Of a DNA stretch of 64,000 bases, positions 4,520 through 56,670 are shown piece by piece. The notes under the pieces were generated by a model, which saw only the letters and a list, made by a program, of their open reading frames with translations, did not search any database and was not told where the DNA came from. Position 1 is the first letter of the stretch. The number at the start of each line of letters is the position of its first letter. The position numbers and the translations under genes were made by a program. This DNA is from Vicinamibacterales bacterium (GTDB taxonomy: Bacteria; Acidobacteriota; Vicinamibacteria; Vicinamibacterales; UBA2999): positions 37,268 to 101,267 of the forward strand of contig CBDHFM010000012.1 of assembly GCA_965262505.1 (NCBI GenBank), in the 5' to 3' direction.

Positions 4520-4599
4520 AGCATCGTGGGGCGGTGCTGGCGCTGTTGGCGGGCAGCGTGACCACGACGGCTCCCCCCAGCCATTCCCCACCGCGTCCG

Positions 4600-4808
4600 T
4601 GAGACGTGAATCGATGATCCCCCTGGAGGGATCCAGCCGCGGCGAGTCCTGCGCGCCACCTGTCGACAGGTCCCGGTCCAACTGACCGGTCTCGATCCAC
4701 TCGTGGATCGTCCGGCGGCGCACGCCGAAGCGTCTCGACACACTCTGCCTTCGAGACGCCCCGTTCCAGGTAGTGCTTCAGCAACATCCTCGTCTCCCAT
4801 CCGTGCAT
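4600..4808 (-). pseudogene. IS21-family istA N-terminal remnant
   Basis: MHGWETRMLLKHYLERGVSKAE, then a frameshift into SRRFGVRRRTIHEWIETGQLDRDL. Confidence 0.6.
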
Positions 4809-23056: not shown

Positions 23057-23074
23057 GAACAGGAGAGAGAACCT

Positions 23075-23917: not shown

Positions 23918-23921
23918 CCCT

Positions 23922-25256
23922 ATGCCCAACTGGACCCGACTGAGCGCCCCGGCTGCGGGCGCATTTTCAGCATCGTGGATCACCCGGATCGGGGCACTTC
24001 TCTTGGCCGTGGTTCTCGGCGGCGCGTTCCTGATGCAATCGTGTTTTTCGTCGGTCCCCACCGACCCCGAATCACTCATTGAGCCCGAGGGGATCGCCGG
24101 CGATCGCGCCGAGCTGGAACTCGGCCAGCGGGTACAGGACATCGAGCAACGCGCGGCGCTGGACGCCGCCGCCGCCGCGCGAACCCTTGCCGTCGAGGGC
24201 ACGCAACTGACCGGCGGGCACGTGACGCCCGCCTTTGACCCGACGACCGGCGAGACGTTGCCCGATGGCACCGCGCCCGGCATCGTCCCGCGAACCGAGG
24301 ACGAGGCGCAGCTCCGCGAACTCCTACGCCTTGAAGCTATCGAACGGCGTACCCGGTCGCTTCGCTCCCAGCCCGTGGTCATCACCTACCGACTCCCCGG
24401 CGGGCTCCCACCGGCAGCGGCGGCGACCGCCGCGGCCGAGCCCGCCCAGGCCGGCGGGCCGACCGCTACCCCCGCGAGCAGCGCCGACGTGGCGCAGCCC
24501 GTGAGCTTGGCTGAAACCGTCGCCGCCCTGGCCGCGCTCGATGTAGAGCAGACCGCCGGCTTGGACCCGACTTCAATGCTCCCGATCGGCCTACAACAGA
24601 TCCCCCCGCCGGACCCGTCCGGCTTGGGCGCACTCCCCGGCGCGGCCGTCGCGCAGGGCGACCCGTCGAACCCCGCCATCGTGCAGACTCCCAACGACCC
24701 GCCCGGATGGGATCGACTCTACGAGGGCTCGTTTATCGAGGGCGTACTCGTGACCCAGCTCAACGGCGACTTTCCCAGCCCGGTCCTTGCGGCTGTGTCC
24801 GTCCCGTTCTACTCGGCCGACCGCCAGCGGATTGTGATCCCGCGCGGCGCGCGGGTGGTCGGATCCGCGTCGGCCACCGTCGGCCAGGATCAAGAACGGC
24901 TCGCCGTCGGGTTTCACCGGCTCATCTTCCCCGATGGTCGATGGGTGTCGCTTGAGTTTCGCGGGCTGAATCAGGTCGGCGAGGGCGCACTCAAAGACCG
25001 CGTGAACCGCCATTACTTGTCGATGTTCGCGGCCGTCGGCGCGGTCGGCATCATCAGCGGCTTGACGTTGCGCGGATCGGACCCGTACGCGGGCGGGCGT
25101 CAGGGGTTCCAGGCGGGCGCAGGGCAAGGGCTCGCCCAGGGCGCGACGAGCATCCTCGACCGTTTCCTCAACCGATTGCCGACCATCACGATCCGCGCCG
25201 GCCACCGGCTACGGATCTGGCTGACGTCTGATGTGCTTGTGCCCCGTTCGATCTGA
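23922..25256 (+). CDS. virB10: VirB10/TrbI
   Basis: TM, Pro/Ala-rich linker, IPRGARVVG, RLIFPDG, VNRH and PTITIRAG. Confidence 0.88.
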   Translation: MPNWTRLSAPAAGAFSASWITRIGALLLAVVLGGAFLMQSCFSSVPTDPESLIEPEGIAGDRAELELGQRVQDIEQRAALDAAAAARTLAVEGTQLTGGHVTPAFDPTTGETLPDGTAPGIVPRTEDEAQLRELLRLEAIERRTRSLRSQPVVITYRLPGGLPPAAAATAAAEPAQAGGPTATPASSADVAQPVSLAETVAALAALDVEQTAGLDPTSMLPIGLQQIPPPDPSGLGALPGAAVAQGDPSNPAIVQTPNDPPGWDRLYEGSFIEGVLVTQLNGDFPSPVLAAVSVPFYSADRQRIVIPRGARVVGSASATVGQDQERLAVGFHRLIFPDGRWVSLEFRGLNQVGEGALKDRVNRHYLSMFAAVGAVGIISGLTLRGSDPYAGGRQGFQAGAGQGLAQGATSILDRFLNRLPTITIRAGHRLRIWLTSDVLVPRSI

Positions 25257-25380
25257 CAGGACCGGGACGGCGGAACCCGCCGGCCCATCACTGCCCCGGA
25301 CCGCGAAGGCTATCCGGGCTTTTTGACGCGGCTCGAGAATGTGTCTTGAGCCCGCGCCCACGGAGAGAAGGAGTCTACCG

Positions 25381-26274
25381 ATGAAACGCACGATCCTTTG
25401 GACCCTCGTACTATTCGCGCCCCTCCTGTGGACGACCACCGCACACGCGCTGTTCGGCGTCCCCGACTTCGCGGCGCTCGCGCAGCGCGTGACGATCATC
25501 GCGAATCAGGGCGTCCAAATAGCGCACAGCGTGACGCAAATCTCGAAAATCACCGAGCAGATGACCGAGATCAAGAACCAGTACGCACACCTGAAAAACG
25601 AAGCGCTCGGGCACGTCGGCGCGCTCACCGATCCCTTTGTGACGCTGGCCGCAGTGCCCGGTACGTATGTCTCTGACGGGCTTGCGTGGCGCACCGCCTA
25701 CACCGGCACCACCACCGCCGGCCTGATCGATGCGTTCGAGCTGTTCAGCGCCAGCGGTACGCCGATGACCGATTACTGGCAGACTCGGCTGGACGCTGCG
25801 CCCGACACGACCGAGGCGGACGTACTCGCCGAATACCACGCGTTCCCCGTGTCGCTCGCCGACCGTGCGGCAGCGAACTACCGCCGGCACCGCGACCACG
25901 GCGAACAGCGCACCGCGCAGAGTCAGATCGTCAACACCGCCGCGTCGTCCGCGACCGCGACTGTTCAATCAGCGCGGCTGTCGTACGCCGCGTTGCGCGG
26001 GCAAACCAACCAATCAGGCACGGCGCTCCAACAGGCCCAGGTCACAGGCACCATTACCGCCGGCGAAGTGTCCGCCGCCGTTCTACAACTTCACGCGCAC
26101 GAGGCGGCACGCCGCGCCGCCGAAGAACTTGAAGCCGAGGAACGACGCCGCGAACGCGAGGCGACACGCCTTGACGCCCTACGCGCGGGCCACGCCGATC
26201 ACAACCTGCGCCGGGGCGGTATCGAGCAGAGCCGCAACGGCGGCGACTCTCTCTTGTTTAGCCTTGTGCAATAG
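25381..26274 (+). CDS. VirB5/TrbJ-like protein
   Basis: Signal peptide, Gln-rich helical N-terminus; position before virB6. Confidence 0.6.
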   Translation: MKRTILWTLVLFAPLLWTTTAHALFGVPDFAALAQRVTIIANQGVQIAHSVTQISKITEQMTEIKNQYAHLKNEALGHVGALTDPFVTLAAVPGTYVSDGLAWRTAYTGTTTAGLIDAFELFSASGTPMTDYWQTRLDAAPDTTEADVLAEYHAFPVSLADRAAANYRRHRDHGEQRTAQSQIVNTAASSATATVQSARLSYAALRGQTNQSGTALQQAQVTGTITAGEVSAAVLQLHAHEAARRAAEELEAEERRREREATRLDALRAGHADHNLRRGGIEQSRNGGDSLLFSLVQ

Positions 26275-26285
26275 CCGGGTGTTCC

Positions 26286-27491
26286 ATGCCCGCCGCACCG
26301 CAACGAACGACTCCGCAGCGACCCTCTCACCGCGCGCCGCGCGCCGAGAGGGCCGCTGCTACTGGCGTGGTGGTACACGCCCTGCACGGGCGGCCGCCGG
26401 CCTCACGGGCGCACGCCTGGCGTGCCGCGAGGCGCGCGGCGTACGTCGCGCTCGTCGCGCTCATCGTGTGCGCGACGCCCGTCCTGGCGCAGCCGCCCCC
26501 ACGACAGCAGATCGATCCCCTCGTCCCCACCAACATTCCCGTTGCAGATCAACACGACTTCAAAGGCTTTCTCGATCAGGTTATGGAGGAGATTCAGCGG
26601 ACGAACGGGCCGGTCGTTCTCGCGGCCGGCAACACGCTGTGGCGAGGACTCGCGGCGATCGTCGTCGTCTGGACCGGCGTGAAAATCGCCATGTCCGGTA
26701 CGTTCTCGATGTGGGCCATCATCGAGCTCATTATCGGGCTCTGGATCCCGTGGGTCATGCTCTTGTTTTACGCGACGAACATCCCCGGTATGACCTTCAC
26801 GTTCCCCGGCATGATCGCCGGCGGCGGTAACTGGCTCCACTCGTTTTTTCTGTCCGACATCGTGCCCGCCGTGCAGATCGAACTCGGGAATCTCGTCACC
26901 ACGCAGACCACCGCCCTGTCCGATGCGTGGGCCGGGACATCCTGGTTTGACCTGACGACCGCCTTTGGCGACGCGATGAGTACGCTCCTCATCGGCACCA
27001 CCATGAGCGGGTTTATTTTTCTGTGTCTGGTGATCATCTACGCCGTCACGTACGCCCAGGTGATCTGGGCGCAGATGGCGATCATGATCCTGGTCTTCGT
27101 CGGCCCGATGATGATCCCCTGGCTCGTCTTTGAGCCGATGGCGTTTCTGTTTTGGGGCTGGTTCCGGTCGATGATCACGTTCGCGCTCTACGGCGCGATC
27201 GCGGGCGCGGTCATGCGCGTGTTTATGAGCGTGTCCCTCGGATTTTTGACCACGTTTCTCGATCAAGCCAACGTCGAGAATCCGTTGCAGATGGTGAGCT
27301 GGTTGCTCATTCTGTTGCCGTTGATGGTGGCCGGCGTGATGGCCTCACTGAAAGTCGGCGAGCTGGCCGGGATGCTCGTGAGCGGCGGCGGCGGCGGCGG
27401 CGCGGGGATGACAGGCGCGCTCATGATGGCCGCGACCGGCGGCAAGGCGGCGCTCGCCGGCAAGGCCGTCGGCGCGGCAGGAGCGAAATAA
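26286..27491 (+). CDS. virB6: VirB6/TrbL
   Basis: Polytopic membrane protein with GP motif and Gly/Ala-rich tail; true start uncertain. Confidence 0.8.
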   Translation: MPAAPQRTTPQRPSHRAPRAERAAATGVVVHALHGRPPASRAHAWRAARRAAYVALVALIVCATPVLAQPPPRQQIDPLVPTNIPVADQHDFKGFLDQVMEEIQRTNGPVVLAAGNTLWRGLAAIVVVWTGVKIAMSGTFSMWAIIELIIGLWIPWVMLLFYATNIPGMTFTFPGMIAGGGNWLHSFFLSDIVPAVQIELGNLVTTQTTALSDAWAGTSWFDLTTAFGDAMSTLLIGTTMSGFIFLCLVIIYAVTYAQVIWAQMAIMILVFVGPMMIPWLVFEPMAFLFWGWFRSMITFALYGAIAGAVMRVFMSVSLGFLTTFLDQANVENPLQMVSWLLILLPLMVAGVMASLKVGELAGMLVSGGGGGGAGMTGALMMAATGGKAALAGKAVGAAGAK

Positions 27492-28153
27492 TGCCACAGA
27501 CCGAGCAGGACAGCGGGAAGACGTACGCCGATATTTGGGGCGAAGCCGTGCACAGCAACCGGCACTTGCGGGTCCTCTCGATGGCGCTCGCCGGGCTGGT
27601 GCTGTTGCTCGTGGTGATCATCGTTCGGCTGTCGTCGGTCGAGCTGCCCAAGCCGATTGTCGTGCGCGTTGATGACGTGGGCCGCGCCGAGGCGCTCGCG
27701 TATGACACGGTTGAAGCCCAGGCCGATCCACTGGACCCGACGACCAAGTATTTCCTTAACAGATTCATTGACGACTATTACAGCCGGCGCGGGGCCACGG
27801 TCGAGCAGGCATGGCCGCGCGCGCTCCGCTTTCTGACGACCACGCTCGCCAATGAAGCGTTCCGACGTGAGGGCGAGAACGTCGCCATGCTTGCGGCCGG
27901 CGCCGCCCGCGACGAGCTGCAAGTGGAGCGGGTGACGCTGCGGATTCAGGCGAGCCCGGAACCCCCGCACGCGGCGGCGGCGGACTTCGATCTTGTGCGG
28001 CTTGTCGGCGGCGCGGAAGTGGGCCGCGACCGCTGGACGCTCTCACTTCAATTCACGTTTATTGAGACGGTCGAGCCCGAGCTGATGATCGTCAATCCAA
28101 TGGGCATCCTCATCACCTATCTACGCGGCGATCGCGCGCTGGTGACAGGATGA
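27491..28153 (+). CDS. virB8: VirB8/TrbF
   Basis: Single TM, PIVVRVDDVG and terminal NPMGILIT. Confidence 0.85.
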   Translation: MPQTEQDSGKTYADIWGEAVHSNRHLRVLSMALAGLVLLLVVIIVRLSSVELPKPIVVRVDDVGRAEALAYDTVEAQADPLDPTTKYFLNRFIDDYYSRRGATVEQAWPRALRFLTTTLANEAFRREGENVAMLAAGAARDELQVERVTLRIQASPEPPHAAAADFDLVRLVGGAEVGRDRWTLSLQFTFIETVEPELMIVNPMGILITYLRGDRALVTG

Positions 28154-38309: not shown

Positions 38310-39305
38310 CTACGACTCGCCGATCAACCGGAGTTGTGTGGGCGTGATGCGTGGGGTCGAGGGCGAGACGACGAGCCCACCCGTCACCGTGTGGTAGTTC
38401 AAGCCGGGCCACGCGGTTTTGATTTTTTTCAGCTCGCGCAAGACCTCCCCGCGGAAGCGGCTGACCGAGCCGGGCTTTGTAGCCTTCGCTGGGTCCGCCC
38501 CGAACTGGTAAAGGAGCTGTCGCCAGGAGAGCGTGAGCGGTGCCGACAACGCGAACGTCCGATAGACGAGCCAGAAATACAAATCCAACCCGAGCGGCGA
38601 CCGCTTGAGCGCCTTGAGGATGTGTAGGTCGAGCGGGATCGGGTGCCGGATGATCTCGTTGAAGAACTGCTCACCGAGCTGGATCGTGGATTCCCACAGG
38701 CCCGGCGTGTCCGGCCGCGACGACGAGTGCCACCAATACTCGGCGCGGTCAGCGATGAACGAATGTACCTGGACCTCATGATCGCTGTCCGCGTAGACGA
38801 GCTGGACCGAACAACGAAAGAGCCGGCGCATCTGATTTTTGAGTCGCGTCCGATCCCCTCGCTCGCCGCCGCTGTGACTCTTCATGCCAAGCTTATGCAT
38901 GAACTCATACAGTGACCGCCCGAGGACCAGTTGGCGGCGCTGCGTCCGTACCGCCTCTGAGCACACCCATGCCAGCAGCAGCCGCGGTAGGATACCGTAG
39001 GGCAGTCGCGCCGGCTGTCCGCCGGCACTCATGATCAGGGTGTATGGCCCGTTGCGCCGGACGTACTCTTTCCGGTCCCCTGGATTGGTGCGCGGCAGAC
39101 TGCACAGCGCGAGCAGCCGCGCCATGAAGCCGAGATCGGGCTCCGCTTCGCTCGCCTCGATGAGCTGATTGACCTGGCGCAGCGTGGTGAAGTGGTGCCG
39201 AGTTTGCGCCGACATTGCCCGCCCGCTCGGGACGACGCTAGGCAGCGTGCCGGCCACGTCGCCGATGGGCACAAACCCGCGAACTGGTCGAGAGGGGCCG
39301 CTCAT
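38310..39305 (-). CDS. repA: Plasmid replication initiator, RepA_C (IncW-like) family
   Basis: GFMARLLALCSLP, LPYGILPRLLLAW, LGRSLYEFM and SPLGLDLYFWL. Confidence 0.85.
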   Translation of the reverse strand: MSGPSRPVRGFVPIGDVAGTLPSVVPSGRAMSAQTRHHFTTLRQVNQLIEASEAEPDLGFMARLLALCSLPRTNPGDRKEYVRRNGPYTLIMSAGGQPARLPYGILPRLLLAWVCSEAVRTQRRQLVLGRSLYEFMHKLGMKSHSGGERGDRTRLKNQMRRLFRCSVQLVYADSDHEVQVHSFIADRAEYWWHSSSRPDTPGLWESTIQLGEQFFNEIIRHPIPLDLHILKALKRSPLGLDLYFWLVYRTFALSAPLTLSWRQLLYQFGADPAKATKPGSVSRFRGEVLRELKKIKTAWPGLNYHTVTGGLVVSPSTPRITPTQLRLIGES

Positions 39306-39405
39306 TGTTCAAAAATCAAGATCGACACGCCAATTTTCTCAGCTCACCATACCAAGTCAAAATCGCTGCATGATACGGGAAACCCTCGTGGATGGCGAAC
39401 CCGTG

Positions 39406-42493: not shown

Positions 42494-42721
42494 CTAGTTG
42501 GCGGCGTCGGCGTCGCGCTTGAGGACCTCGATCACGAGGGTGCGCAGTTCCGTGATGTCGTCGTGGACTTCAGTGAAGCGGGCGTTCATGTCTATGCGCA
42601 AGCCGTCGATGCGGGCGTTGACGTCGTCGATGCGCTTGCCCGAGTACCAGGCGCTGCCGGCCATCGTGAAGACGACGGCCGCGGCCGCCACGAAGATGGT
42701 GATGCGGTCGGTCGCATTCAT
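42494..42721 (-). CDS. Small membrane-anchored coiled-coil protein
   Basis: TM segment followed by RIDDVNARIDGLRIDMNARF heptads. Confidence 0.6.
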   Translation of the reverse strand: MNATDRITIFVAAAAVVFTMAGSAWYSGKRIDDVNARIDGLRIDMNARFTEVHDDITELRTLVIEVLKRDADAAN

Positions 42722-42747
42722 ACCTGCAGTGTACCACCCCTTCCACG

Positions 42748-42854
42748 GATGGGACATCGATCAGAGTGTCCAGAGTGTCCCGGTTGCGGCCGGGGGGAGT
42801 GACCTGATCTCCAACCTGCGACCTCTGCACTGGAGAGCCAACGTCGCTCGGTAG
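42748..42854 (+). pseudogene. HNH endonuclease 3' fragment
   Basis: GWDID...VPVAAGGSDLISNLRPLHWRAN, with a 9-bp tandem duplication where the His is expected. Confidence 0.5.
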
Positions 42855-42886
42855 CAGATTCGCTGTGATCGGTGCCACCCCCTCGT

Positions 42887-44017
42887 CTACCGGGAATCTG
42901 TCACCGCCGTCGCGCCATCGCCTCTGTGCTCCCCACTCAGATAGGTCGCCCACTCGTCCATCAGCCGCCGCCGGCGCTCGAACAGGTCCGACCGGGCGTA
43001 GGCCGCCTCGGTCTGGTTGGCCACCACGTGCGCGAGCGCCGCCTCGACCACCTCACGCGGATGATTCGTCTGTTCCGCGGCCCAGTCCCGGAACGATGAC
43101 CGGAATCCGTGCGGCACGGCGGCCACCTTCAGGTTCTGAAGCAGCCGCGGCAGCCGCGTGATGCTGATCGGCTTGCCGCCCTGGCTGGGGAACACGAGCG
43201 GCCCGCGGCCATCGCCGAGCGGCCGCGCCGCACGGAGCATCTTCACCGCCCGTCCGCACAGCGGGACCCGGTGCTCGCGCTTGGACTTCATACGCCCGGC
43301 GGGGATCGTCCACACGCCGGCCCGCAGGTCGATCTCGGCCCACCGCGCGCCGCGCACTTCGCCCGACCGCGCCGCCGTCAGCACCAGAAACTCGAACGCC
43401 AGCTTGACGACCGGTGTCGCCCCCGACTCCCCCATCGTTCGGATCGCCGCCGCCACCTCGCCGTGCGGGAGCGCGCGCATGTGCTCGACGAGGTCCTGTT
43501 GCGGGCCGAGGACCGGGCCGAGCCGGTCGCACGGGTTGTCGCTGCGGTACTCCATCGCCACGGCCCAGTCCAGCACGGCGCTGATCCGCTGGCGAACGCG
43601 GCGCGCGGTCTCGGGCCGGATGTGCCAGATGTGCCGCAGCGTATCCAGCACGTCGACGCTGCTGACGCTCGATACCGGCGTGTCGCCGATGTGCGGGAGG
43701 ACGTGCCGCGTCAGGCTCGACATCCAGTCATGAGCGTGCCGGGGGTGGCGCCAGCCGGGGTGCTTGTCCGTCCAGACCCGCTCAGCCGCGGCGGCGAAGG
43801 TGGGCACGGTGTCGGGACGCTGCCTGTCCGCGACCGGGTCGCCGCCTTGGCGCGCCGCCTTGCGGTTGGCGAACGCTTGGTCGCGCGCCTCCTTGAGCGA
43901 GACGAGCGGAAAGCCGCCGAGCCCCACGTCGCGGCGGCGGCCACGGATCACGATCCGCTGGATCCAACTTCGCGTGCCCGTGGGTTGCACGGTCAAGTAG
44001 AGGCCGTTGCCATCTCC
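42887..44017 (-). CDS. P4-like tyrosine integrase IntB, 3' part (lacks first 35 codons)
   Basis: Paralog of 8922-10040; frame reads *GRSGDGNGLYLTVQP with an in-frame TGA just upstream. Confidence 0.85.
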   Translation of the reverse strand, partial: GDGNGLYLTVQPTGTRSWIQRIVIRGRRRDVGLGGFPLVSLKEARDQAFANRKAARQGGDPVADRQRPDTVPTFAAAAERVWTDKHPGWRHPRHAHDWMSSLTRHVLPHIGDTPVSSVSSVDVLDTLRHIWHIRPETARRVRQRISAVLDWAVAMEYRSDNPCDRLGPVLGPQQDLVEHMRALPHGEVAAAIRTMGESGATPVVKLAFEFLVLTAARSGEVRGARWAEIDLRAGVWTIPAGRMKSKREHRVPLCGRAVKMLRAARPLGDGRGPLVFPSQGGKPISITRLPRLLQNLKVAAVPHGFRSSFRDWAAEQTNHPREVVEAALAHVVANQTEAAYARSDLFERRRRLMDEWATYLSGEHRGDGATAVTDSR

Positions 44018-44079
44018 ACTACGGCCTCACAGAATCCACCAACGTGTCGTATTGTGCTGTATGTAGCATAAACGTTGTA

Positions 44080-44161
44080 GTAATAACTATTTATGACACC
44101 TTACGAGCTTCCTGATCCGCTCACAACATCCTTTGCGGTCCATCAACATCCCCTATACAAT
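44080..44161 (+). promoter_or_regulatory. Operator and -10 box upstream of intA
   Basis: GTAATAACTATTTATGAC (44080-44097); TACAAT (44156-44161) 6 nt before the ATG. Confidence 0.55.
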
Positions 44162-44167
44162 GAGGGT

Positions 44168-45430
44168 ATGAATAGCGCGACACAGACGCTGCACCTGCCG
44201 CGACGGACCAAGCCCCGAGGCCGCCATCCCGACAAGCGGCTGACGGCAGGCTTCGTGCGGACCGTCGCGCCCGGACGATACTGCGATGGCCAGGGGTTGT
44301 ATCTCTACGTCCAGCCGTCCGGCACCAGGAGCTGGGTCCAGCGGCTCATGATCCACGGTCGCCGCCGTGACCTCGGGCTCGGCAGCGTGGCGCTGGTGCC
44401 GCTCGTCGAGGCCCGCGAGAAGGCGCGGGTCAACCGCAAGCTGGCCCGCGAGGGGGGCGACCCGCTCGCGGAGAAGCGCCGCGCGGAGGGGACGCCGACG
44501 TTTGCGGAGGCGGCCCGCCGCGTGCTGGACCAAAAACGGGCCGGCTGGCGGAACGGCCGGCACCCGCAGAGCTGGTGGACGAGCCTGGAGCGCTACGCCT
44601 TTCCCCGGATTGGCGCACGGCCGGTGTCCGACGTGACGAGCGCTGAGGTGCTGGAGGTGCTCACGCCGGTCTGGCACGTGAAGGCGCAGACCGCGCGGCG
44701 TGTGCGTGAGCGGATCCGGGCGGTGCTGGAGTGGGCCGTGGCGATGGAGTACCGCAGCGACAACCCGTGCGACCGCATCGGGCCAGTCCTCGGACCGCAG
44801 CAAGTAACGGTCGAGCACATGCGGGCGCTCGCGCACCAGGACGTGCCGGCAGCTCTCGCACGGGTGCGAGCATCCGGGGCGGCCGAGATCGTCAGGCTGG
44901 CGTTCGAGTTTCTCGTGCTGACGGCGGCGCGGTGGGGCGAGGTCCGCGGGGCCGCGTGGACCGAGATCGACGCCGCCGCCGCCGTGTGGACGATCCCCGC
45001 CGCGCGCATGAAGGCGAAGCGCCCGCACCGGGTCCCACTACCGGAGCGCACGGCGGAGATCCTCGAGGCGGCGCGGACGCGTGGCGACGGGCCGCTCGTG
45101 TTTCCCGGGCGGGACGGGGCGCCGCTGGCCGACAAACGGCTGCGCCGGCTCCTCCAGCAGCAGGGGATCGCAGCCGTGCCGCACGGCTTCCGGTCCACCT
45201 TCCGAGACTGGGCGGCCGAGGAGACCGACCATCCGCGCGAGGTCATCGAGGCGGCGCTGGCGCACGTCGTGCAGAACACGGTCGAAGCGGCCTATGCCCG
45301 CTCGGACCTGTTCGAGCGCCGGCGGCGGCTCATGGGCGACTGGGCGGCCTATTTGAACGGGACGCCTCGTCCGGCTGTGTACAATGGTTCCGTTCCCGGC
45401 ATCAGACGAGAGGAGGATCGACGGTCATGA
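44168..45430 (+). CDS. P4-like tyrosine integrase IntA, intact
   Basis: Paralog of 10191-11438; start placed at MNSATQ by alignment. Confidence 0.92.
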   Translation: MNSATQTLHLPRRTKPRGRHPDKRLTAGFVRTVAPGRYCDGQGLYLYVQPSGTRSWVQRLMIHGRRRDLGLGSVALVPLVEAREKARVNRKLAREGGDPLAEKRRAEGTPTFAEAARRVLDQKRAGWRNGRHPQSWWTSLERYAFPRIGARPVSDVTSAEVLEVLTPVWHVKAQTARRVRERIRAVLEWAVAMEYRSDNPCDRIGPVLGPQQVTVEHMRALAHQDVPAALARVRASGAAEIVRLAFEFLVLTAARWGEVRGAAWTEIDAAAAVWTIPAARMKAKRPHRVPLPERTAEILEAARTRGDGPLVFPGRDGAPLADKRLRRLLQQQGIAAVPHGFRSTFRDWAAEETDHPREVIEAALAHVVQNTVEAAYARSDLFERRRRLMGDWAAYLNGTPRPAVYNGSVPGIRREEDRRS

Positions 45431-45585
45431 CGCTCCCGACACACCCACGCGAACCGAGACCCCCAGGCCGGCGGCTTGAACATGCACTCACGCCAGCCTT
45501 CGTGCGCAACGTGGCCACGGCCGGCCGTTACGGAGATGGTCGCCGCCGATCGCGTGCAACTGCTTCAGAATACATGGCTTATTGA
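45427..45585 (+). CDS. 5' piece of IntB (arm-domain N-terminus)
   Basis: MTLPTHPREPRPPGRRLEHALTPAFVRNVATAGRYGDG-RRRS...; AGGAGG RBS; ATGA overlap with the intA stop. Confidence 0.82.
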   Translation: MTLPTHPREPRPPGRRLEHALTPAFVRNVATAGRYGDGRRRSRATASEYMAY

Positions 45586-46015
45586 CCAGCCCCAGCGTTC
45601 GCTTCCCTCGTTGTACCCCTCTCTCTGAACGGGACCCTGCCGGACCAAGAAAGCCGTCCGTGGACGGCCCCGGCCTGAGCGCCAGCGTGACCACCCCGGA
45701 ACCCGTCGTGACGCCGACGCCGATCCACTCGCGTCCCACCGCTGCCGTCGCGGCTCCCATGGCGGCGACGCGCCGCGGGATCGTGTGGCCTCCGGTGATC
45801 ACGTCGTAGGGCACAACCACGCCGGCAGCGCTGGCCAGCACGTCCCCGGCGTGGCGCGTCTCGACCAGACGGTCGCCGCCAGCTCAGGCGCGCGAATGAG
45901 GGAAGAACCCGCTGGCCTCGGCCTGCGTGACGCGGGAGGCGCCGTCGAGCCCGAGTTCGTCGCGGCGGCCGCGGATGGCGCTGCGCTCGATCGATCCGCC
46001 CCCGCCACGCCTCCC

Positions 46016-46038
46016 GTTACCCACAATCTTACCCACAC
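46016..46038 (+). repeat. Putative arm-type site pair, element B
   Basis: ttacccaca twice with 12-bp period; matches 14254-14276. Confidence 0.65.
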
Positions 46039-46255
46039 GTGGTGTCCGATGCCCCTGGACTCTCCCGGACGGCTTCACGCGTTCCTGGATCCGGGCGTGG
46101 CGGTGGAGCGGCCACTAAGCAGCCGATCTCCGTGAGGCGACCAGGGCCGGAAAGAGGACGAGCTGACCAGCAAGGCGGGACCGCCGTGGACACCCGCGGC
46201 ACCAGCCGGACCCCATCTGCGGAATCAACGCGGTGAGGGGGTCGTGGCTCCGAAC

Positions 46256-46293
46256 AAAAAAAAGGCGAGCGGACACCGGAGGCGCCGCTCGCC
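46256..46293 (-). terminator. Intrinsic terminator of surface-protein allele 3
   Basis: GC-rich stem plus T8; homologous to 12154-12191. Confidence 0.85.
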
Positions 46294-46440
46294 GAAAAAT
46301 CGCCGGTCACGAGCTGGGAGCACCGTTCCACGACCAGAACACTCGGGGACGCTCAGAAAAGCAAAGTGGGGATCCGGCGCAAACGCGCCGGGTCCCCCCC
46401 CTGCCCGATTACCCCCCCGGGCTTTCAGGAACGATAGGCT

Positions 46441-48441
46441 CTACGAGCCCTGCCGCCGCCGCCGATACAACTGCCGCGCACCGCCACCCATCAGGCCAAA
46501 CCCGAGCAGCCACTGCGCAATCAACGGCAGCGCTGGCACCGGCTCCGGCGGCGCTTCAGTCACGGTCACCATAACCTGCATGTGGCCGCTGACGCCGCTG
46601 CCCGTGGCCGTCACGGTCACCGACTCGTTGGCCGTCAACATCACGGAGCCGCTCGTCTCGCCCATCGCGATCGTGATCGAGTCGGCATCCAGTGTGCCGT
46701 CACCCACCACGGACAGATCAATCGTGGCCGCGCCGTCTCCAACCGTGACGGCTCGGTTGGCCGTCGCGGTGATCATCGTCGTGCCGCCCGCCTCGATCTC
46801 CATGGGATCGGCGCTCAGCCTGACCACCAGTTCCGTGTCTTCCACCGTCACGGGGAACGTGAGCTCGGCGACGTTCGACACGGTCTGCGACGACATGAGC
46901 GAGGACGATGCCATTCTCGCCGTCCCGGTGACGGTGATCTTGGCCTCGCCGGCCATCAGCGCGTTGATCGTGACCGTATCGCCCGACGCGGACGCACTGG
47001 CCGAGTCACCCTCCACGGAGACGCCGTAGCTGGCCGTGTAGCCGTCCATCACATCGAACAGGTCACTCGTCATGAGCGTGACCGTGTCACCCGGGTTCAG
47101 GCCGTCGTCGCCGCCCCCCGCCGTAATCGCGGCCATGAGCGCCGCGTAGTCGGCCTCACTCGCCTTCGGCGTAATCTTCTTCGTCGTCTCGTCCTCAATG
47201 TTCAGCGACAGCACACCCGCGCTCGTGCGGGTCCCTGGGCCGTTGGCGCTCTCACCGGACACCACGGCGTCGAACATGAGCGATTCCATGCCGACATCCT
47301 CGTCCGACCGCACCTCGATTTTTATGACAGCGCTCATCCCTTTGGCCATCTTGATGTCGGCCGACCCGACCAACGTGTAGTCCGCCGAATCGGCCGTGCC
47401 GGTCGGCATGAACGCCACCGTGAGGTTCTCTGCGGCGTTCATGGCTTTGCCCTTGTCGTCGACCACCATCACCGCCACCATGGCGGTTTCGCCTTCCTTC
47501 ACCGACATGGGTTGCGGGTCGAGGGCCTTGCCGTCCTTATCGACCACCATCATCGCGACCGCAGGCAGCGCGTTCTTGTCTTCGATATCGATGGACAATG
47601 CGTCAACCAACGTGGCATTCCCCGCCGAGCCCGAATACACGGAGACCGTGATCGTGTCTTCGACACGGTTCTTGTCGTTCCCGCCCAGGGTGATGGTGAT
47701 GTCCTCCGAACGGTTGTCCTCGTTAAGCGTGGGGACGGTGGCAGTCACCGGAGCGGTGATGCTGGCAAGAGTCGGCGGACTGTCAATTTGCACCGACAGA
47801 TCCGCGGAGCCGTTGACGTGTGCAGGGTTCGCGGTGACGGTCACCGTGATCGGATCGCCCCCCTCCTCGGGCTCCGCGTCGTCATCCAAGGTCAGGTCGT
47901 AGGACTGGGTCTCGTCGTCATCAATGGTGAGCGTCGTTGGGCTACCTGACGCTTCTGCGATGGTGTCGCCGTCCGCATCCTTAAGGCCACCGTCCACCAG
48001 AACGAAACTCCAATCGAAGACCTCATCCTCCGCGTCCAAGTCATGGGTCGTCTGCACCCGGATAGTGCGCGTTGCAGAGTACGAGACGGGGCTTAAGGTG
48101 GCGTTCGACGGAATTGCGAAAGTTGCGACGAGGCCTAGTTGCGCCGTGTTGATATCTTCTGTCTCACCCGCGGTGGCGGTGGCCGTGGCAGTTCCGGCGA
48201 CAATTTCCGCTGTCACGGTCGCCGTGGCCGCCGCGGTGGGAGTGTCCGCGTCCTGGGCGGCGTCGATCATCCCCTTGAGGGTCACGGTCACCGTGACGCT
48301 GTCGCCCTCGGCCACCGCTTTATCCGCCCTGATGGTGGCCTGTGCCGACGCCGTCCCCGCGGACGCCACCAGCAGCACAATCGCGGCAAGAGCCGTGAGC
48401 CAGTAGCCCTTTCGCATAAAAGTTGATCTCGCTCCGTTCAT
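46441..48441 (-). CDS. IPTL-CTERM-like surface protein, allele 3 (promoter-proximal)
   Basis: C-terminal half closely similar to allele 1, N-terminal half divergent; same signal peptide start and sorting signal. Confidence 0.85.
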   Translation of the reverse strand: MNGARSTFMRKGYWLTALAAIVLLVASAGTASAQATIRADKAVAEGDSVTVTVTLKGMIDAAQDADTPTAAATATVTAEIVAGTATATATAGETEDINTAQLGLVATFAIPSNATLSPVSYSATRTIRVQTTHDLDAEDEVFDWSFVLVDGGLKDADGDTIAEASGSPTTLTIDDDETQSYDLTLDDDAEPEEGGDPITVTVTANPAHVNGSADLSVQIDSPPTLASITAPVTATVPTLNEDNRSEDITITLGGNDKNRVEDTITVSVYSGSAGNATLVDALSIDIEDKNALPAVAMMVVDKDGKALDPQPMSVKEGETAMVAVMVVDDKGKAMNAAENLTVAFMPTGTADSADYTLVGSADIKMAKGMSAVIKIEVRSDEDVGMESLMFDAVVSGESANGPGTRTSAGVLSLNIEDETTKKITPKASEADYAALMAAITAGGGDDGLNPGDTVTLMTSDLFDVMDGYTASYGVSVEGDSASASASGDTVTINALMAGEAKITVTGTARMASSSLMSSQTVSNVAELTFPVTVEDTELVVRLSADPMEIEAGGTTMITATANRAVTVGDGAATIDLSVVGDGTLDADSITIAMGETSGSVMLTANESVTVTATGSGVSGHMQVMVTVTEAPPEPVPALPLIAQWLLGFGLMGGGARQLYRRRRQGS

Positions 48442-48482
48442 GAGTGTCGCTCCTTTAAGACTAGGGGGTAACGGTTACTTCT
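48414..48482. repeat. Direct repeat copy 3, right boundary of element B
   Basis: One mismatch to copies 1 and 2. Confidence 0.85.
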
Positions 48483-49422: not shown

Positions 49423-50897
49423 CTAACAGGCTGTGGCAGAACTGCCTTCGTGCAGCCCTGGAAGAATGTGTGGCTGAGTCGGCGTCATCGAGCGAATCCA
49501 CGATGGAACGGTCCAATTTTCCGACACGAGCGCCGCGGAGCGCGATACGAGGCCCCAGAAGCGGCGCAATGCGAGCAGCAAGGCGTCGCCGAGGGCATAG
49601 GCGCGGCCCTGGAGGCCGCGCGGCGTCCCGACGCCGAGCAGTTGCCGCATGAGCAGCCCGAGATTCAAGCCGCAGACCTGCAGGAGCAGGCGCTTGAGGA
49701 TGTTGCCGTGTCCGCGCAGGTGCACGCGGCGCATCCCTCCGGTTGCGTAGAGATGCGCATTGGGACGTTCGAGGCGTTCACCGCGTCGACGCAGTAGCCG
49801 CTTACCGCGTGCGCCGCGAATCCGTCGCCGGTTGGCATACACCGCGTCACGGGCGACGTGCTTCCCGCGCCAGTTGCGCCGGCCCCGGTCGGGCTCCGAC
49901 ACGTAGCTGCGGATCTCCACCTCGGCCAACGTGACCAGTGTCTGGTTGCTGTGGTAGCCCTTGTCGCAGACCAGCTCCGCGATGCCGGGCCCCGCCGGCA
50001 GCACCGCGTCGACCTGCTCGGCGGCGGTAACCAGCGTCTCGAGCATCGTCTGGGTGTCGCCGGCATCCGCGGCCTGGACACTGACGCCGACCACCGCGCC
50101 CGTCTCCAGGTCCACGGCATGCTCGGCCTTGTGCGCCAGGCGGGTCCTGCCGTCCTTCATCTTCGTGATCTTCGCGTCCGGGTCCTTGGGATGCGTCCAG
50201 TCGTCGTTGGACCCCTTCTTCGGGCGCTTGCGGTCCAGGCGGGCCAACTCGGCGCGCGTCGGCGTGGCGATGCCCGAAGCCGCCGCCAGGTGGCGCAGGA
50301 ACGTCTCGTAACCCGCGCCCGTATCCCGGCGTACGATGCTTCGAAGCGCCGCATTGGCTTCCAGCGTCGTCGCGTCGATGCCGACCGTCTTGCCCCCGAC
50401 CAGGCCCGCGTCGGCCAGCCGCTGCAGCACCCAGGTGAAGACCGCCAGGTGCGTCTCGACGTCGATCCGTCGCCGCGTGCGCGACACCGTCGAGTGGTCC
50501 GGCGGCGCCGCGTCGAGCGACACGTCGAGGAACTGCCGCAGGCTCAGCGAATCGGCGGCCCGCCACGCAATCGCCCGTTCCGAGTCCAGCCCCTCGAAGT
50601 AGCCGAGCAGCAGCATCCGGAAGTAGCGGCCCGGCACCAGGCTCGGCCGACCGACCCCGTCGGCATAGAACTTGGCGCACTGCTCCTCGACGAAGGCGTC
50701 GAAGCCCGCCGCGTCGAGGATACGATTCAGGCGTTCGTAAAACGGATGGCCCGCGCTGCGCGGCAGGTCCGAACTGGACACCCACATCGACGGCTGCCGC
50801 CCGCCACGGCAGCGCTTGCCCATTGCCATGGAAGGAAGTGTCGTACGTCAGATCGACCCTGTCGATCCCGATCAGGGACTTTCACCACAGGCTGCTA
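49423..50897 (-). mobile_element. IS1182-family insertion sequence (transposase 49423-50829)
   Basis: GRPSL, SERAI, PDHSTVSR, IDATTLEANA, DPDA and DKGY; imperfect terminal IRs aggctgtggcagaa / agcctgtggtgaa. Confidence 0.8.
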
Positions 50898-54971: not shown

Positions 54972-56670
54972 CGTGTCAACGTCTTTGAGACAACCTGGTT
55001 CAGCATTTACTGTAGCGACTCCACGCCATCGACGCGGTGCAACGACGACCGATCGAGCGGCGGTCGCGGCCGGGCAACGACCGCATGCTGCGAGTCGTCC
55101 GGGGTGCCGGTCGTCGGTCCTGGGGCATCCTGGCGGGTCGTTTTCGCCGGCGGATTGATCCATACGGCGGTCGGCAAGGTTTCTGGGCGTGGTGGTCCGC
55201 TGACGAATCGCTCCGGATGCGCGGCGTAGGCCACGAGGCGGGTGCGGTGACGCAGGTCGAGGATCGCCGGCGCGCGGCCGTAATGCACGGCGGCCGGCGT
55301 GAGATAGCTGAGGCCGCTGTGGTGGTGGGCGTCATTGTACCAAGCCAAGAGGTCGTGGCAGATGGCGCGCGCGTGTTCGAGTGCGCCGAACCGCTTCGGA
55401 AACGCCGGCCGATACTTGAAGGTGCGAAACTGCGCCTCCGAGAACGGATTGTCATTGCTCACGCGCGGCCGCGAGTGGCTGGCCGCGATGCCGAGGTCGG
55501 AGAACAACAGCGCGACGAGCTTGCTGCGCATGGGCGCGCCGCGGTCGGCGTGAATCGTGAGCTGCTGCGGCTGGATGCGCTGCTTCGCGCAGGTCTGCTC
55601 GATCAAGCGCTCGGCCAGGTGGGCGCTCTCCTTGACCGCCACCATCCAGCCCACGACGTAGCGGCTGAAGAGGTCGAGGATCACATACAGCGAGTAGTAG
55701 AGATAGGGGACCGGGCCCTTCAGCTTGGTGATGTCCCAGGACCAGACCTGATTCGGCGCCGTCGCGACGAGCTCGGGTTTGACGTACGCCGGATGCCGCA
55801 CCTGGTCGCGGCGCTCCCGCACTTCGTCGGCCTCGGCGAGCACCCGATACATCGTGCGCGGGGAGCAGAGGTATGTCTGCTCCTCAAGCAACGTCGCATA
55901 GACTTCGGCGGGCGATTGATCGACAAACCGCGCGCTGTGCAACGTGTCGCGGACGGCTCGCCGTTCGGCAGGGACCAGCGCGCGCGGCGACGGCGCGCGG
56001 GGCCGCCGGGGCGGCGTGGGCCGGCGCCGCCGATAGAGCGACGCGCGGGACACACCGATGCTCTGACACAACGCCGACGTCTCGCCCTTCGCCGTGACGG
56101 CCTCGATCGCGCGCATCAGTCGGTCTCGTCGGTGTCGAGGGGTGTCAGGGGGATCTCCAGGATCTCGGCAACTTTTTTTTGGAGGGCGATGATCGTCTCG
56201 GCCCGCTGCAGCTTCCGCTGGAGCCTGCGGTTCTCGGCTTCCAACTGCTTCACACGCGGGTCGATCGGACGTGGGGTCGGGCCGCGCCGACGTCCCCGCA
56301 TGTCCAGCAGGGCGCCCTGCTCACGCTGCCGTCGCCAGTTCGCCAAGTGCGAGCTATACAAGCCTTCTCGGCGCAGCAGCGCCCCCAGCTCGCCAGGCCG
56401 CTTGCACGCGTCCGCCCGCTTGAGGATGCGGAGCCGATACCCCGCCGTGAACCGGCGGCGCTGGGCTTTCGCCGGCACTTCAGGATCGGGTGCCGTCGCG
56501 GCTGACGTAGCCGTGGGCCCGAAGGCTCCGGTCGCCCTACGGGCTCCCTCCGCCTTCGGCCCCACGACCACGTCCATCTCCACGGCTGGTGGCATGCGAT
56601 TCATCCATCAAACCCTCCCCGCCCCGACACTAATCTCAATAAGGAGGTTGTCTCATAGATCATTGGCACA
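54972..56670 (-). mobile_element. IS3-family insertion sequence (orfA about 56116-56604, orfB 55007-56116)
   Basis: IRs gtgtcaacgtctttgagacaacc / gtgccaatgatctatgagacaacc; WSWDITKL, HADRG and DNPFSE; A8 slippery run near the orfA end. Confidence 0.88.

What the first reader, a model, noticed from the sequence alone, without database searches (positions are those of the whole stretch)
42887..45621. Second copy of the invertible integrase switch with a different overlap sequence (element B)
Seen: the split falls at the same codon. Sites are GGCCGTAGT-GGAGATG-GCAACGGCC (minus, around 44002-44026) and GGCCGTTAC-GGAGATG-GTCGCCGCC (45523-45547). Inversion yields a 411-aa ORF (35+7+369) whose ATG overlaps the intA stop (ATGA) and has an AGGAGG RBS. 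The 7-bp overlap is TGTGATG at both sites in A and GGAGATG at both sites in B. The motif cgcttccctcgNNgtacccctc starts 62 bp after the right-hand overlap in both elements (11702 and 45600). Inference: matched overlaps within each element, despite divergent flanks, imply ongoing selection for recombination. Different overlaps would insulate the two neighbouring switches from each other.
Basis: partly seen in the sequence, partly recalled or inferred. Interest (0 to 1): 0.9.

Follow-up and report, generated by a model that had tools for sequence, protein, structure and literature searches.

The report
Integrase gene split by site-specific inversion
A bacterial mobile element carries two integrase genes, one of them cut in two at a recombination site inside its own reading frame and apparently rebuilt or broken by flipping a 1.5-kb DNA segment, something described so far only, in another form, for archaeal viruses and plasmids.

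Summary
Element B holds the intB C-piece (42887-44026, minus), core L (44002-44026), a 141-bp spacer, intact intA (44168-45430), the intB N-piece (ATG 45427) and core R (45523-45547). The 17-nt inverted repeat alone is unremarkable (rank 8 of 59).

The comparative evidence is strong.
- The same architecture occurs 15 times in this genome in three overlap types, and in three other genomes of the order.
- L and R overlaps match exactly in 8 of 11 lineages. Shuffling expects 1.82; 6 of 200000 shuffles reach 8.
- Both intB pieces are under purifying selection: C-piece dN/dS 0.2-0.3, like intact intA; the N-piece keeps its ATG.
- Copies have exchanged flanks within a 37-bp interval that contains core L.
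- The spacer and the 100 bp after R look like the two arms of one attP.

No copy in the rebuilt state was seen here, and the read data were uninformative. Intact relatives do exist.

Best reading: a self-inverting intA/intB module, a bacterial analogue of archaeal suicidal integrases. Ongoing two-way switching is inferred, not shown.

The parts
42887..44026 (-). intB C-piece (element B): 379 codons, open from just after a TGA to the stop at 42887-42889. It lacks a start codon and the first 17 positions of the arm-binding domain.
   Evidence: Pfam: Arm-DNA-bind_3 profile positions 18-82, Phage_int_M and Phage_integrase. Aligns to residues 33-395 of an intact homologue. dN/dS 0.2-0.3, including the first 62 codons.
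44002..44026 (.). Core site L: GGCCGTTGC-CATCTCC-ACTACGGCC. It consists of the arm from the intB C side, a 7-bp overlap and the arm from the spacer side.
   Evidence: Identical in 8 of 8 type-B copies. The exchange point between copies maps to 43996-44032.
44027..44167 (+). AT-rich spacer upstream of intA. Presumed P arm of attP and intA promoter region.
   Evidence: Its length of about 142 bp and its layout are conserved in 19 copies from 4 genomes. The only sigma-70-like match in 42700-46500 (44007-44035) straddles core L. That is a consensus match only.
44168..45430 (+). intA: intact P4-type tyrosine integrase, 420 aa.
   Evidence: Pfam: Arm-DNA-bind_3 profile positions 1-83, Phage_int_M, Phage_integrase. 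dN/dS 0.16-0.42 between copies.
45427..45585 (+). intB N-piece: ATG overlapping the intA stop. Residues 1-38 are a true integrase N-terminus. A 14-residue tail after the overlap is not conserved.
   Evidence: The ATG is kept in 14 of 14 N-pieces examined. Synonymous changes predominate.
45523..45547 (.). Core site R: GGCCGTTAC-GGAGATG-GTCGCCGCC. It consists of the arm from the intB N side, a 7-bp overlap and the arm from the right flank.
   Evidence: 8 of 8 type-B copies carry it. In copies C21a/b divergence jumps directly after the overlap.
45548..45650 (+). Conserved right flank ('RF100'), presumed P' arm of attP. It includes the motif CGCTTCCCTCGTTGTACCCCTC at 45600-45621.
   Evidence: Same layout and constant spacing in 23 of 24 R flanks from 4 genomes. 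Motif. No Rfam family match and no unusual RNA fold, z +1.45.
46441..48474 (-). RF-ORF: 677-aa protein of unknown family that follows every R site. It also sits next to intact intB relatives in other genomes.
   Evidence: No hit in Pfam, NCBIfam or PHROGs and no Atlas lead. Homologues lie beside intB in G254, G284 and G038.
8922..11723 (.). Element A, the sister copy: C-piece 8922-10049 (minus), L 10025-10049, spacer, intA 10191-11438, N-piece 11538-11672, R 11625-11649, motif 11702-11723. Overlap TGTGATG.
   Evidence: (80.07% identity to element B over 2434 aligned positions).

Best explanation
Element B is one copy of a compact two-integrase recombination module carried by conjugative plasmid-like or integrative elements of a sponge-associated bacterium. 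The closest named database homologues are from Acidobacteria MAGs.

The ancestral, 'assembled' form reads: RF-ORF, attP, intA, intB. Its attP core (spacer-side arm, 7-bp overlap, right-flank arm) lies about 140 bp upstream of intA. A second, nearly palindromic core (GGCCGYTAC-N7-GCAACGGCC) lies inside codons 33-41 of intB, in inverted orientation and with the same 7-bp overlap. A tyrosine integrase recombines the two cores; IntA, IntB or both could do it, and which one is not known. This inverts the 1.5-kb segment that holds the spacer, intA and the first 35 codons of intB.

The result is the state seen in all copies. intB is cut into an N-piece behind intA and a start-less C-piece on the other strand. 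attP is cut into two hybrid sites, L and R. By analogy with attP x attB against attL x attR in lambda-type systems, the split state would be the easy, resting one. The return reaction would need a directionality factor or induction.

Shown: the anatomy; site identity and covariation; selection on both pieces; exchange of DNA exactly at L.

Inferred: the inversion itself; its reversibility; which integrase acts; the role of the flanks as arm regions.
For: 1. Anatomy. The two intB pieces abut at the same codons of an intact homologue. The C-piece lacks arm-domain profile positions 1-17, which the N-piece would supply.

2. Recurrence. The genome has 15 L and 17 R sites in types A, B and C, all in the same configuration. 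The same architecture is in G038, G188 and G284.

3. Overlap covariation. All 12 L/R pairs that flank a present intA in this genome match exactly: 8 of type B, 2 of type A, 2 of type C. Across 11 lineages 8 match exactly, with seven different L-side overlap sequences, against 1.82 expected; 6 of 200000 shuffles reach 8. Lineage G284_86 carries an unusual Asp-Ser version at both sites.

4. Selection.
- C-piece dN/dS is 0.20-0.36, against 0.16-0.42 for intA.
- The first 62 codons after the split give 0.09-0.39.
- All 8 full-length C-pieces compared are open for 362-376 codons at dS up to 1.3.
- The N-piece keeps its ATG in 14 of 14 copies. Between types its dN is 0.14-0.23 and its dS 0.33-1.37.

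5. Flanks. The 142-bp spacer and the 100-bp right flank keep length, spacing and motifs across types and genomes, as the arms of an attP would.

6. Activity at the core.
- Copy C12w equals C20a to the left of L: 100, 100, 100 and 99.7% in four bins, with no mismatch from -300 to +21.
- It differs from C20a at 13 positions in +22..+64.
- It equals C22a to the right: 2 mismatches in +16..+300 and none in +1300..+1800.
- C22b has the reciprocal combination.

7. Intact relatives with the same in-frame palindromic core exist. Within the database clade that holds the split forms, 9 of 77 rows are intact, at four nested places.
Against: - No assembled (flipped) copy was seen. There are 0 intact type A, B or C intB junctions and 0 spacer|right-flank junctions in the 7.0-Mb assembly, and none in the modules of G038, G188 and G284.
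- The four public runs laid were short Logan unitigs. The opposite-strand joints listed lie between paralogous parts of intA and intB, not at the cores.
- Two lineages have one mismatch between L and R: G188 with its proximal R, and G284_86. One module has two mismatches, and there intA is deleted.
- Exchange at L between copies, and the G038 copy opened at L, show that the sites are also used for reactions other than local inversion.
- In some database relatives an in-frame ATG in the spacer precedes the C-piece. Expression without rejoining therefore cannot be excluded in those lineages. In elements A and B a stop codon blocks this.
- dN/dS was computed with a simple Nei-Gojobori script on related, non-independent copies.
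Confidence: 0.55

Rival explanations
1. One-way 'suicidal' inversion. The attP core and the core inside intB recombine once, for instance after transfer or establishment. This destroys intB and attP for good. The split copies are end products that persist and multiply by other means, and the return reaction plays no part.
For: - All copies are in the split state: 15 L and 17 R sites, and 0 rebuilt junctions.
- Split copies have multiplied and moved between genomes as such. There are 8 type-B copies, and the G038 copy is 92-99% identical to copies here.
- Archaeal suicidal integrases set a precedent for self-disruption (PMC8371274, passages read).
Against: - Pieces without further use should decay. 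Instead both stay open and constrained at dS 0.4-1.3 between split lineages, and the N-piece keeps its ATG and mostly its ribosome-binding site.
- L and R overlaps covary after divergence: C9a against C9b, and G284_87 against G188 against type B.
- Intact forms are nested inside the split clade.
Confidence: 0.2
2. L and R are not partners of a local inversion. They are junctions left by integration of one element, through its attP next to intA, into the intB gene of another element. The arrays on the small contigs would be nested or serial insertions of elements that target each other's integrase genes.
For: - Integrase genes are integration targets in this genome. A 3.57-kb element with its own integrase sits inside intA on contig C20, between 16-bp direct repeats at the conserved DNPCD codons.
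- Flanks have been reassorted exactly at L.
- In G038 the spacer-side and C-side halves of L are joined to unrelated DNA.
- Modules recur every 10-35 kb along contigs that carry conjugation and replication genes.
Against: - Simple insertion would leave the two intB pieces in direct orientation around the whole inserted element. Here they are inverted and 1.5 kb apart in every copy.
- A nested-insertion series predicts modules in both orientations and a terminal intact intB and attP. All modules on a contig point the same way, and no intact junction exists.
- It also requires the cargo-bearing elements to have an attP type different from their intB type, while the intA-bearing ones have equal types. 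That is an ad hoc pattern (reasoned).
- C-piece, spacer, intA, N-piece and right flank are always of one type.
Confidence: 0.15
3. Relic of an old rearrangement. intB is a pseudogene in two pieces, and the similarity of L and R is left over from the conserved GRYxDGNGLY coding sequence.
For: - The inverted repeat alone is not exceptional in this G+C-rich DNA (rank 8 of 59).
- Two of 14 C-pieces in the genome are truncated, at 70 and 179 codons.
Against: - dN/dS is 0.2-0.3 over the whole C-piece, and frames of 362-376 codons stay open in 8 lineages.
- The overlaps covary.
- The non-coding flanks are conserved.
- 33 database clusters have the same junction and 37 more are truncated gene calls.
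Confidence: 0.03

Closest known systems
Archaeal 'suicidal' SSV-type integrases (SSV1, pTN3, pT26-2)
   Same: The recombination site lies inside the integrase's own reading frame. Recombination cuts the gene into an N and a C part, so that recombination itself controls the supply of integrase (PMC8371274, passages read; PMC7253208, abstract start seen in the listing).
   Different: [quoted passage not shown] Here a bacterial P4-type enzyme has Arm-DNA-bind_3, Phage_int_M and Phage_integrase.
- There the gene is split by integration, and the parts flank the whole provirus in direct orientation. Here the parts are inverted, 1.5 kb apart, and flank a second, intact integrase gene.
- The review states that self-disrupting recombinases are found exclusively in archaea.
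Invertible DNA switches run by tyrosine recombinases (fimS with FimB/FimE, Bacteroides invertons, Rci shufflons, pneumococcal hsdS inversions)
   Same: Short inverted core sites flank a segment. The recombinase is encoded next to or inside the segment. Gene ends are exchanged by inversion. The general features are recalled; examples appear in the listing.
   Different: - Those switches toggle promoters or variable ends of surface or specificity genes. Here the gene that is cut is itself an integrase, and the partner site appears to be half of an attP.
- Both orientations are documented for the known switches. Here only one was seen.
P4-family integrases of genomic islands and ICEs, with attP beside int and arm-type sites (lambda/P4 paradigm)
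   Same: The domain architecture is the same. A core lies about 140 bp upstream of int and is flanked by conserved non-coding regions. Partners need an identical overlap (established knowledge).
   Different: - The usual targets are tRNA gene ends; no tRNA gene is in the window.
- Here the attB-like partner lies in cis inside a second integrase gene.
- attP is found only in two halves.
   Same: Two related tyrosine recombinase genes lie side by side on a mobile element. In tripartite ICEs, recombination between att sites rearranges the element before transfer.
   Different: None of these is known, to my recollection, to carry a recombination site inside one of the recombinase genes or to keep one recombinase gene in two inverted pieces.

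Membership tests
P4-type tyrosine integrase (Arm-DNA-bind_3 + Phage_int_M + Phage_integrase) | All three Pfam domains above the curated cut-offs | tested here: met
   intA scores 62.5, 93.7 and 54.0 bits. The intB C-piece scores 61.6, 93.6 and 53.9 bits. Cut-offs are 27, 27 and 27.1. The NCBIfam PRK09692 domain model stays below its cut-off: 147 and 143 bits against 434.
P4-type tyrosine integrase | Complete arm-binding domain in one polypeptide | tested here: not met
   This row concerns intB as it stands. The C-piece covers profile positions 18-82 of 83 only. The missing start is encoded 1.4 kb away on the other strand. intA meets the feature (positions 1-83).
P4-type tyrosine integrase | Catalytic residues (Arg, His-x-x-Arg, Tyr) | tested here: inconclusive
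   Both translations contain TAAR.GEVRG, HGFRS.FRDW and EAAYARSD. Assigning these to the catalytic residues rests on recall, not on a structural alignment.
Suicidal (SSV-type) integrase | Recombination site inside the integrase's own reading frame | tested here: met
   The break and the 7-bp overlap fall in codons 36-38 of the frame defined by an intact homologue. Exchange between copies maps to the core.
Suicidal (SSV-type) integrase | Gene split by integration, with parts in direct orientation at the two ends of the integrated element | tested here: not met
   The parts are on opposite strands, 1.5 kb apart, in all 12 complete modules of the genome.
Suicidal (SSV-type) integrase | Phage_integr_3 domain (PF16795), as named in PMC8371274 | tested here: not met
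   This family is not among the Pfam hits at E up to 0.01.
Site-specific invertible switch | Inverted core sites that bound the segment and share an identical overlap | tested here: met
   17-nt inverted repeat, 82% complementary, 1496 nt apart. The overlap GGAGATG is identical at both sites.
Site-specific invertible switch | Both orientations present in a population or among close relatives | tested here: not met
   There are 0 flipped junctions in the assembly, and none in the G038, G188 and G284 modules. Reads were uninformative. Only more distant intact relatives exist.
Site-specific invertible switch | Recombinase shown to act on the sites | not testable with these tools
   This needs an inversion assay.
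attP with arm regions (lambda/P4 paradigm) | Conserved non-coding arms with protein-binding sites on both sides of the core | tested here: inconclusive
   Conserved spacer (19 copies) and right flank (23 of 24) with constant spacing. In every copy they lie on different hybrid sites. No binding data exist.

The most novel reading that the evidence does not exclude
This is a bacterial counterpart of the archaeal suicidal integrases, built differently. A P4-type integrase gene holds an attB-like core in its own reading frame, and the matching attP lies next door in inverted orientation. One inversion therefore locks or unlocks the integrase and the attachment site together.

The 7-bp overlap, which sits on synonymous codon positions, defines at least seven mutually insulated specificity types that coexist in one cell. 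The same sites let elements of one type swap halves, which would drive the modular evolution of a large plasmid and ICE population in sponge symbionts.
Probability: 0.45. Interest if true: 0.85.

Novelty: new variant of a known kind. Interest (0 to 1): 0.75.

Why it matters
- It would move self-disrupting integrases out of the archaea. A 2021 review states that they occur only there. It would also show a second way to build them: inversion in cis instead of integration.
- It would give a natural example of a recombinase that switches its own gene and its own attachment site in one step. That is a form of directionality control without, or in addition to, an excisionase.
- It offers a natural series of related integrase and site pairs that differ in the overlap. 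Such pairs are the raw material for orthogonal recombinase tools.
- The family is not rare. Among the 120 closest database clusters, 33 show the same junction and 37 are truncated in the way gene callers treat such a piece. They are currently annotated as ordinary integrases.
- The module may help explain why this genome's mobile fraction assembles into 29 small, repeat-rich contigs. I did not test this.

Tried and rejected
- Reads. One run search found 11 runs from 5 studies that hold part of the stretch, among them sponge metagenomes. Four were laid. All are Logan unitigs of about 140-500 nt. The listed opposite-strand joints (for example 42993/45249 and 43537/44749) connect paralogous positions of intA and the intB C-piece, not the cores. 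29 further joints were not shown. This gives no evidence for or against inversion.
- Plasmid collection. tblastn of the C-piece found 744 records, all below 60% identity. No related module was seen.
- Genome-contig scan with an alignment of three C-pieces. It returned 2 loci at 67% and 44% identity, which I did not pursue.
- Metagenome-contig scans. The pattern for a rebuilt type A/B core gave 0 hits. The control pattern for the split L core gave 1 hit, which has no integrase similarity and is a chance match. The collection does not hold these elements, so the zero carries no information.
- tRNA, RNA family or RNA structure at the right flank. None was found.
- RF-ORF function. There was no hit in Pfam, NCBIfam or PHROGs, and the best Atlas score was 0.77, below a usable level.
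- Promoter and terminator scan. It gave one promoter-like site across L and one terminator-like site inside intA, against 0.2 and 1.4 expected. These are hints only.
- Simple SSV-like integration as the origin of the two pieces. Rejected, because the pieces lie on opposite strands.
- Nested insertion. Kept as a rival at low odds.
- Literature. Four searches found no description of a bacterial integrase gene split at an internal recombination site. Only titles and abstract starts of the listings were seen, plus passages of PMC8371274. Subscription journals are not covered, and supplements were not consulted.
- Tree. I left out 4 very short proteins (P0046, P0063, P0080, P0095) and 3 without the anchor motif (P0050, P0083, P0098). 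The clade of 77 rows has SH-aLRT 90, below the starred level.

Full report
WHAT IS THERE

The window is G000:C12:37268-101267. The genome is 7.0 Mb in 30 contigs: one of 5.4 Mb and 29 of 13-121 kb, all near 65% G+C.

- On the minus strand, an integrase frame of 379 codons is open from 44026 down to the stop at 42887-42889. A TGA lies five codons before the conserved GNGLY. There is no usable start.
- A 141-bp AT-rich spacer follows (44027-44167).
- On the plus strand lies an intact 420-aa integrase, intA (44168-45430).
- Overlapping the intA stop (ATGA) is a 52-codon frame. Its first 38 residues are an integrase N-terminus.
- AGGAGG lies 10 nt before that ATG.

Pfam finds Arm-DNA-bind_3, Phage_int_M and Phage_integrase in both intA and the minus-strand piece. 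The minus-strand piece starts at profile position 18 of the arm domain.

Against an intact 406-aa homologue from genome G284, the small frame aligns to residues 1-38 and the large piece to residues 33-395. The two are therefore the halves of one gene, intB, cut within codons 33-38. The six shared codons are present on both halves: GRYGDG and GRSGDG.

The sites are L = GGCCGTTGC-CATCTCC-ACTACGGCC (44002-44026) and R = GGCCGTTAC-GGAGATG-GTCGCCGCC (45523-45547).

Element A (8922-11723) has the same anatomy with overlap TGTGATG. It is 80% identical to B over 2434 aligned positions. The 22-nt motif occurs only at 11702 and 45600, each 62 bp after the overlap, with none expected by chance.

IS IT MORE THAN CHANCE?

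Taken alone, the 17-nt inverted repeat L/R is only the 8th longest of 59 in this G+C-rich stretch. The case rests on comparison.

The genome holds 15 L-type and 17 R-type sites.
- Type B (GGAGATG): eight complete modules.
- Type A (TGTGATG): two complete modules.
- Type C (TGCCATG or TGTCACG): five L sites and three R sites.
- Three orphan R cassettes carry GGTGATG.
- One orphan R is of type A.

In all 12 modules where L and R flank a present intA, the overlaps are identical. The remaining type-C modules are damaged:
- one has intA precisely deleted and has mismatched overlaps;
- two have no R within about 2 kb.

The same architecture occurs in three other genomes of the order, in two other families.
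- G038 has one copy.
- G188 has one.
- G284 has four, plus one orphan R.

In these genomes the overlaps are TGTGATG, GGCGACG, GGAGACG, TGCCATG and GCAGACA/GCGGACA.

Counting one entry per lineage, and conservatively using the mismatching proximal R of G188, 8 of 11 L/R pairs match exactly. Shuffling the partners expects 1.82, and 6 of 200000 shuffles reach 8. The lineages are related, so this is not a clean probability. The variable positions are mostly third codon positions (GGA/GGC, GAT/GAC, TGC/TGT, CAT/CAC), and they have changed at both sites together.

THE PIECES ARE NOT DECAYING

- Between types and genomes the C-piece has dN/dS 0.20-0.36 at dS up to 0.6 within this genome. intA gives 0.16-0.42.
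- With the G284 and G188 copies added, dS reaches 1.3 in the first 62 codons. All eight full-length C-pieces stay open for 362-376 codons.
- Those first 62 codons, the remainder of the arm domain directly after the split, give 0.09-0.39. That is no weaker than the rest of the gene.
- Two of 14 C-pieces in the genome are truncated.
- For the N-piece, 20 codons were compared. Between types dN is 0.14-0.23 and dS 0.33-1.37. Within types the changes are synonymous only. All 14 N-pieces keep an ATG, and most have a purine-rich stretch before it.
- The sequence after the overlap in the N-piece frame is unrelated between types. The constraint therefore ends at the overlap.

A protein that is read from the very first codon after the break needs an N-terminus. 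In elements A and B a stop codon closes the frame upstream.

THE FLANKS LOOK LIKE THE TWO ARMS OF ONE attP

The spacer keeps its length of about 142 bp and a recognisable layout in 19 copies from four genomes.

The 100 bp to the right of R are conserved in 23 of 24 R flanks, at constant spacing. They match no RNA family and fold no better than shuffles.

If the segment between the overlaps were inverted, three things would follow.
- The spacer and the right flank would become neighbours around the core GGCCGTAGT-GGAGATG-GTCGCCGCC.
- This composite would lie about 140 bp upstream of intA, the usual place of attP in this integrase family.
- intB would become a 411-aa gene translationally coupled to intA, with a nearly palindromic core (GGCCGTTAC-GGAGATG-GCAACGGCC) in codons 33-41.

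I did not build that sequence. This follows from the coordinates.

THE CORES HAVE BEEN USED RECENTLY

Among the type-B copies, C12w is the one in the window. Positions are counted relative to window 44011.

| Comparison with C12w | Left of L | Right of L |
|---|---|---|
| C20a | identical: bins of 100, 100, 100 and 99.7%; no mismatch from -300 to +21 | 13 differences in +22..+64 |
| C22a | 14 differences in -288..-15 | 2 differences in +16..+300; none in +1300..+1800 |

C22b combines the left variants of C22a with the right variants of C20a. All four combinations of two left and two right alleles therefore exist. The switch point lies in window 43996-44032, which contains L.

At R, the C21 copies are 96-98% identical to C12w through the N-piece and 82-84% identical in the 120 bp after the overlap. 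The mismatches begin at +1530, directly after the overlap.

In G038 the same type-C element is opened exactly at L. The C side is joined to one foreign sequence and the spacer side to another, sharing only CATG with the target. N-piece, R and right flank are unchanged. The copy is 92-99% identical to copies here, although the genomes belong to different families, so it was transferred recently.

These sites are therefore points of site-specific exchange, not only of a private inversion.

THE OTHER STATE

No rebuilt junction of type A, B or C exists in the assembly: 0 N|C junctions and 0 spacer|right-flank junctions, against 8 L and 8 R of type B. The reads I could lay are short unitigs and say nothing on this.

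Intact relatives do exist.
- G284 has an intact gene, 78% identical to the C-piece, with GGCCGCTAC-TGCGACG-GCAACGG in frame. It is followed by a homologue of the RF-ORF.
- G254 has integrase, intact intB and RF-ORF in a row, and a second locus with two tandem intact genes.

I classified the 120 best database clusters (68-95% identity to the C-piece) by their N-termini.
- 50 are intact.
- 33 begin a few residues before xDGNGLY with unrelated sequence. This is the same junction.
- 37 are gene calls that start just downstream, as callers do when no start is available.

In a tree of 117 rows, one clade of 77 holds 35 split, 33 truncated and 9 intact rows. The intact rows sit at four nested places. 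Its neighbour clade of 29 rows is entirely intact. The label 'intact' needs 6 changes, of which well-supported branches force at least 3. The state has therefore changed several times in the history of the family. The direction of those changes cannot be read from an unrooted, quickly built tree.

SURROUNDINGS

The window carries these genes:
- type IV secretion genes (a VirB4-like ATPase, CagX, TrbI, TrbL and a VirB11-like ATPase);
- two coupling proteins;
- ArdC;
- a RepA_C replication protein;
- an AbiE toxin-antitoxin pair;
- an HTH-S24 repressor;
- two transposases.

Modules recur every 10-35 kb and all point the same way on a contig. C-piece, spacer, intA, N-piece and right flank are always of one type, while the cargo between modules is mosaic.

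On contig C20 a 3.57-kb element with its own intact integrase is inserted in intA between 16-bp direct repeats at the conserved DNPCD codons. In this genome, integrase genes are targets of integrases.

MECHANISM, AND WHAT IS SHOWN

Shown:
- the split gene and its exact break;
- the paired sites and their covarying overlaps;
- constraint on both pieces;
- the conserved flanks;
- exchange at the cores;
- the existence of intact relatives.

Inferred: a tyrosine integrase recombines the attP core with the core inside intB on the same molecule, and so inverts the spacer, intA and the N-piece.
- By analogy with lambda-type systems, attP x attB-like gives the hybrid sites easily, and the return needs a directionality factor. 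That would explain why the split state is the one seen. This is analogy, not evidence.
- Which integrase acts is unknown.
- The only sigma-70-like match in the region straddles L. That hints that intA transcription could depend on orientation. It is a consensus match only.

COMPARISON AND NOVELTY

It works like two known things at once: an invertible switch run by a tyrosine recombinase, and a suicidal integrase whose recombination site lies in its own gene.
- It is not a member of the SSV family. The domain, the host domain and the split geometry are all different.
- It does not meet the test of a proven invertible switch, because only one orientation was seen.
- A review of 2021 states that self-disrupting recombinases are found exclusively in archaea (PMC8371274, passages).
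- My four searches found no bacterial case, within the limits of an open-access library.

I rate it a new variant of known kinds, well supported as a family-wide architecture. The dynamic part is still to be demonstrated.

Noticed in passing
G000:C20:2993-7838 (loci L013, L019; outside the window): A 3571-bp element with its own intact 435-aa integrase and two further ORFs is inserted in a type-B intA gene. It lies between 16-bp direct repeats GACAACCCGTGCGACC at the conserved DNPCD codons. This is an integrase gene used as an integration target. A close homologue of that integrase is in G034.
   Followed up: partly
window 46441-48474, 12342-14183 and 67-2115 (minus strand): A 613-683-aa ORF of no known family follows every R site. 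It also sits beside intact intB relatives in G254, G284 and G038. It is probably part of the module, with unknown function.
   Followed up: partly
G000:C20:38021-38322, C21 around 8031, C22 around 31139: There are three orphan 302-bp cassettes made of N-piece, R core and right flank only. Their overlap is GGTGATG, one change from type B. There is no intA upstream, and a transposase-like ORF lies downstream.
   Followed up: partly
G000:C12:35614-36649 (about 650-1650 bp before the window start): A type-C module in which intA is precisely deleted from its start codon on. It is the only module here with mismatched overlaps (L TGCCATG, R TGTCACG).
   Followed up: yes
L089 (G188:C1:18000-37999), positions 9470 and 10669: Two N-piece/R sites lie in tandem behind one intA. 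The distal one matches L (GGAGACG). The proximal one differs by one base and lacks the conserved right-flank motif.
   Followed up: no
G000:C20, 1-14324 and 62934-77255: This contig has 14.3-kb inverted repeats near its ends (99.95% identical). Each holds a type-B module, and a further 3.8-kb inverted pair is present. Recombination between them could flip the middle of the replicon.
   Followed up: no
window 2583-4777, 16180-16890, 17537-18640, 20528-32582, 38310-39308: Gene content of a conjugative plasmid or ICE: an AbiEii/AbiEi pair, an HTH-S24 repressor, ArdC, a type IV secretion set with two coupling proteins, and RepA_C.
   Followed up: partly
window 44080-44095 and 10100-10125: The spacers of A and B share TAGTAATAA (three stop codons in a row) within an AT-rich near-palindrome upstream of intA. 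It may be an operator or a bending-protein site.
   Followed up: no
window 49423-50847 and 55007-56320 (minus strand): Two transposase genes (DDE_Tnp_1 with DUF772; rve) lie downstream of element B. An IS6-like transposase sequence also lies beside the G038 copy. I recognised it by eye in the translation; it was not tested.
   Followed up: no
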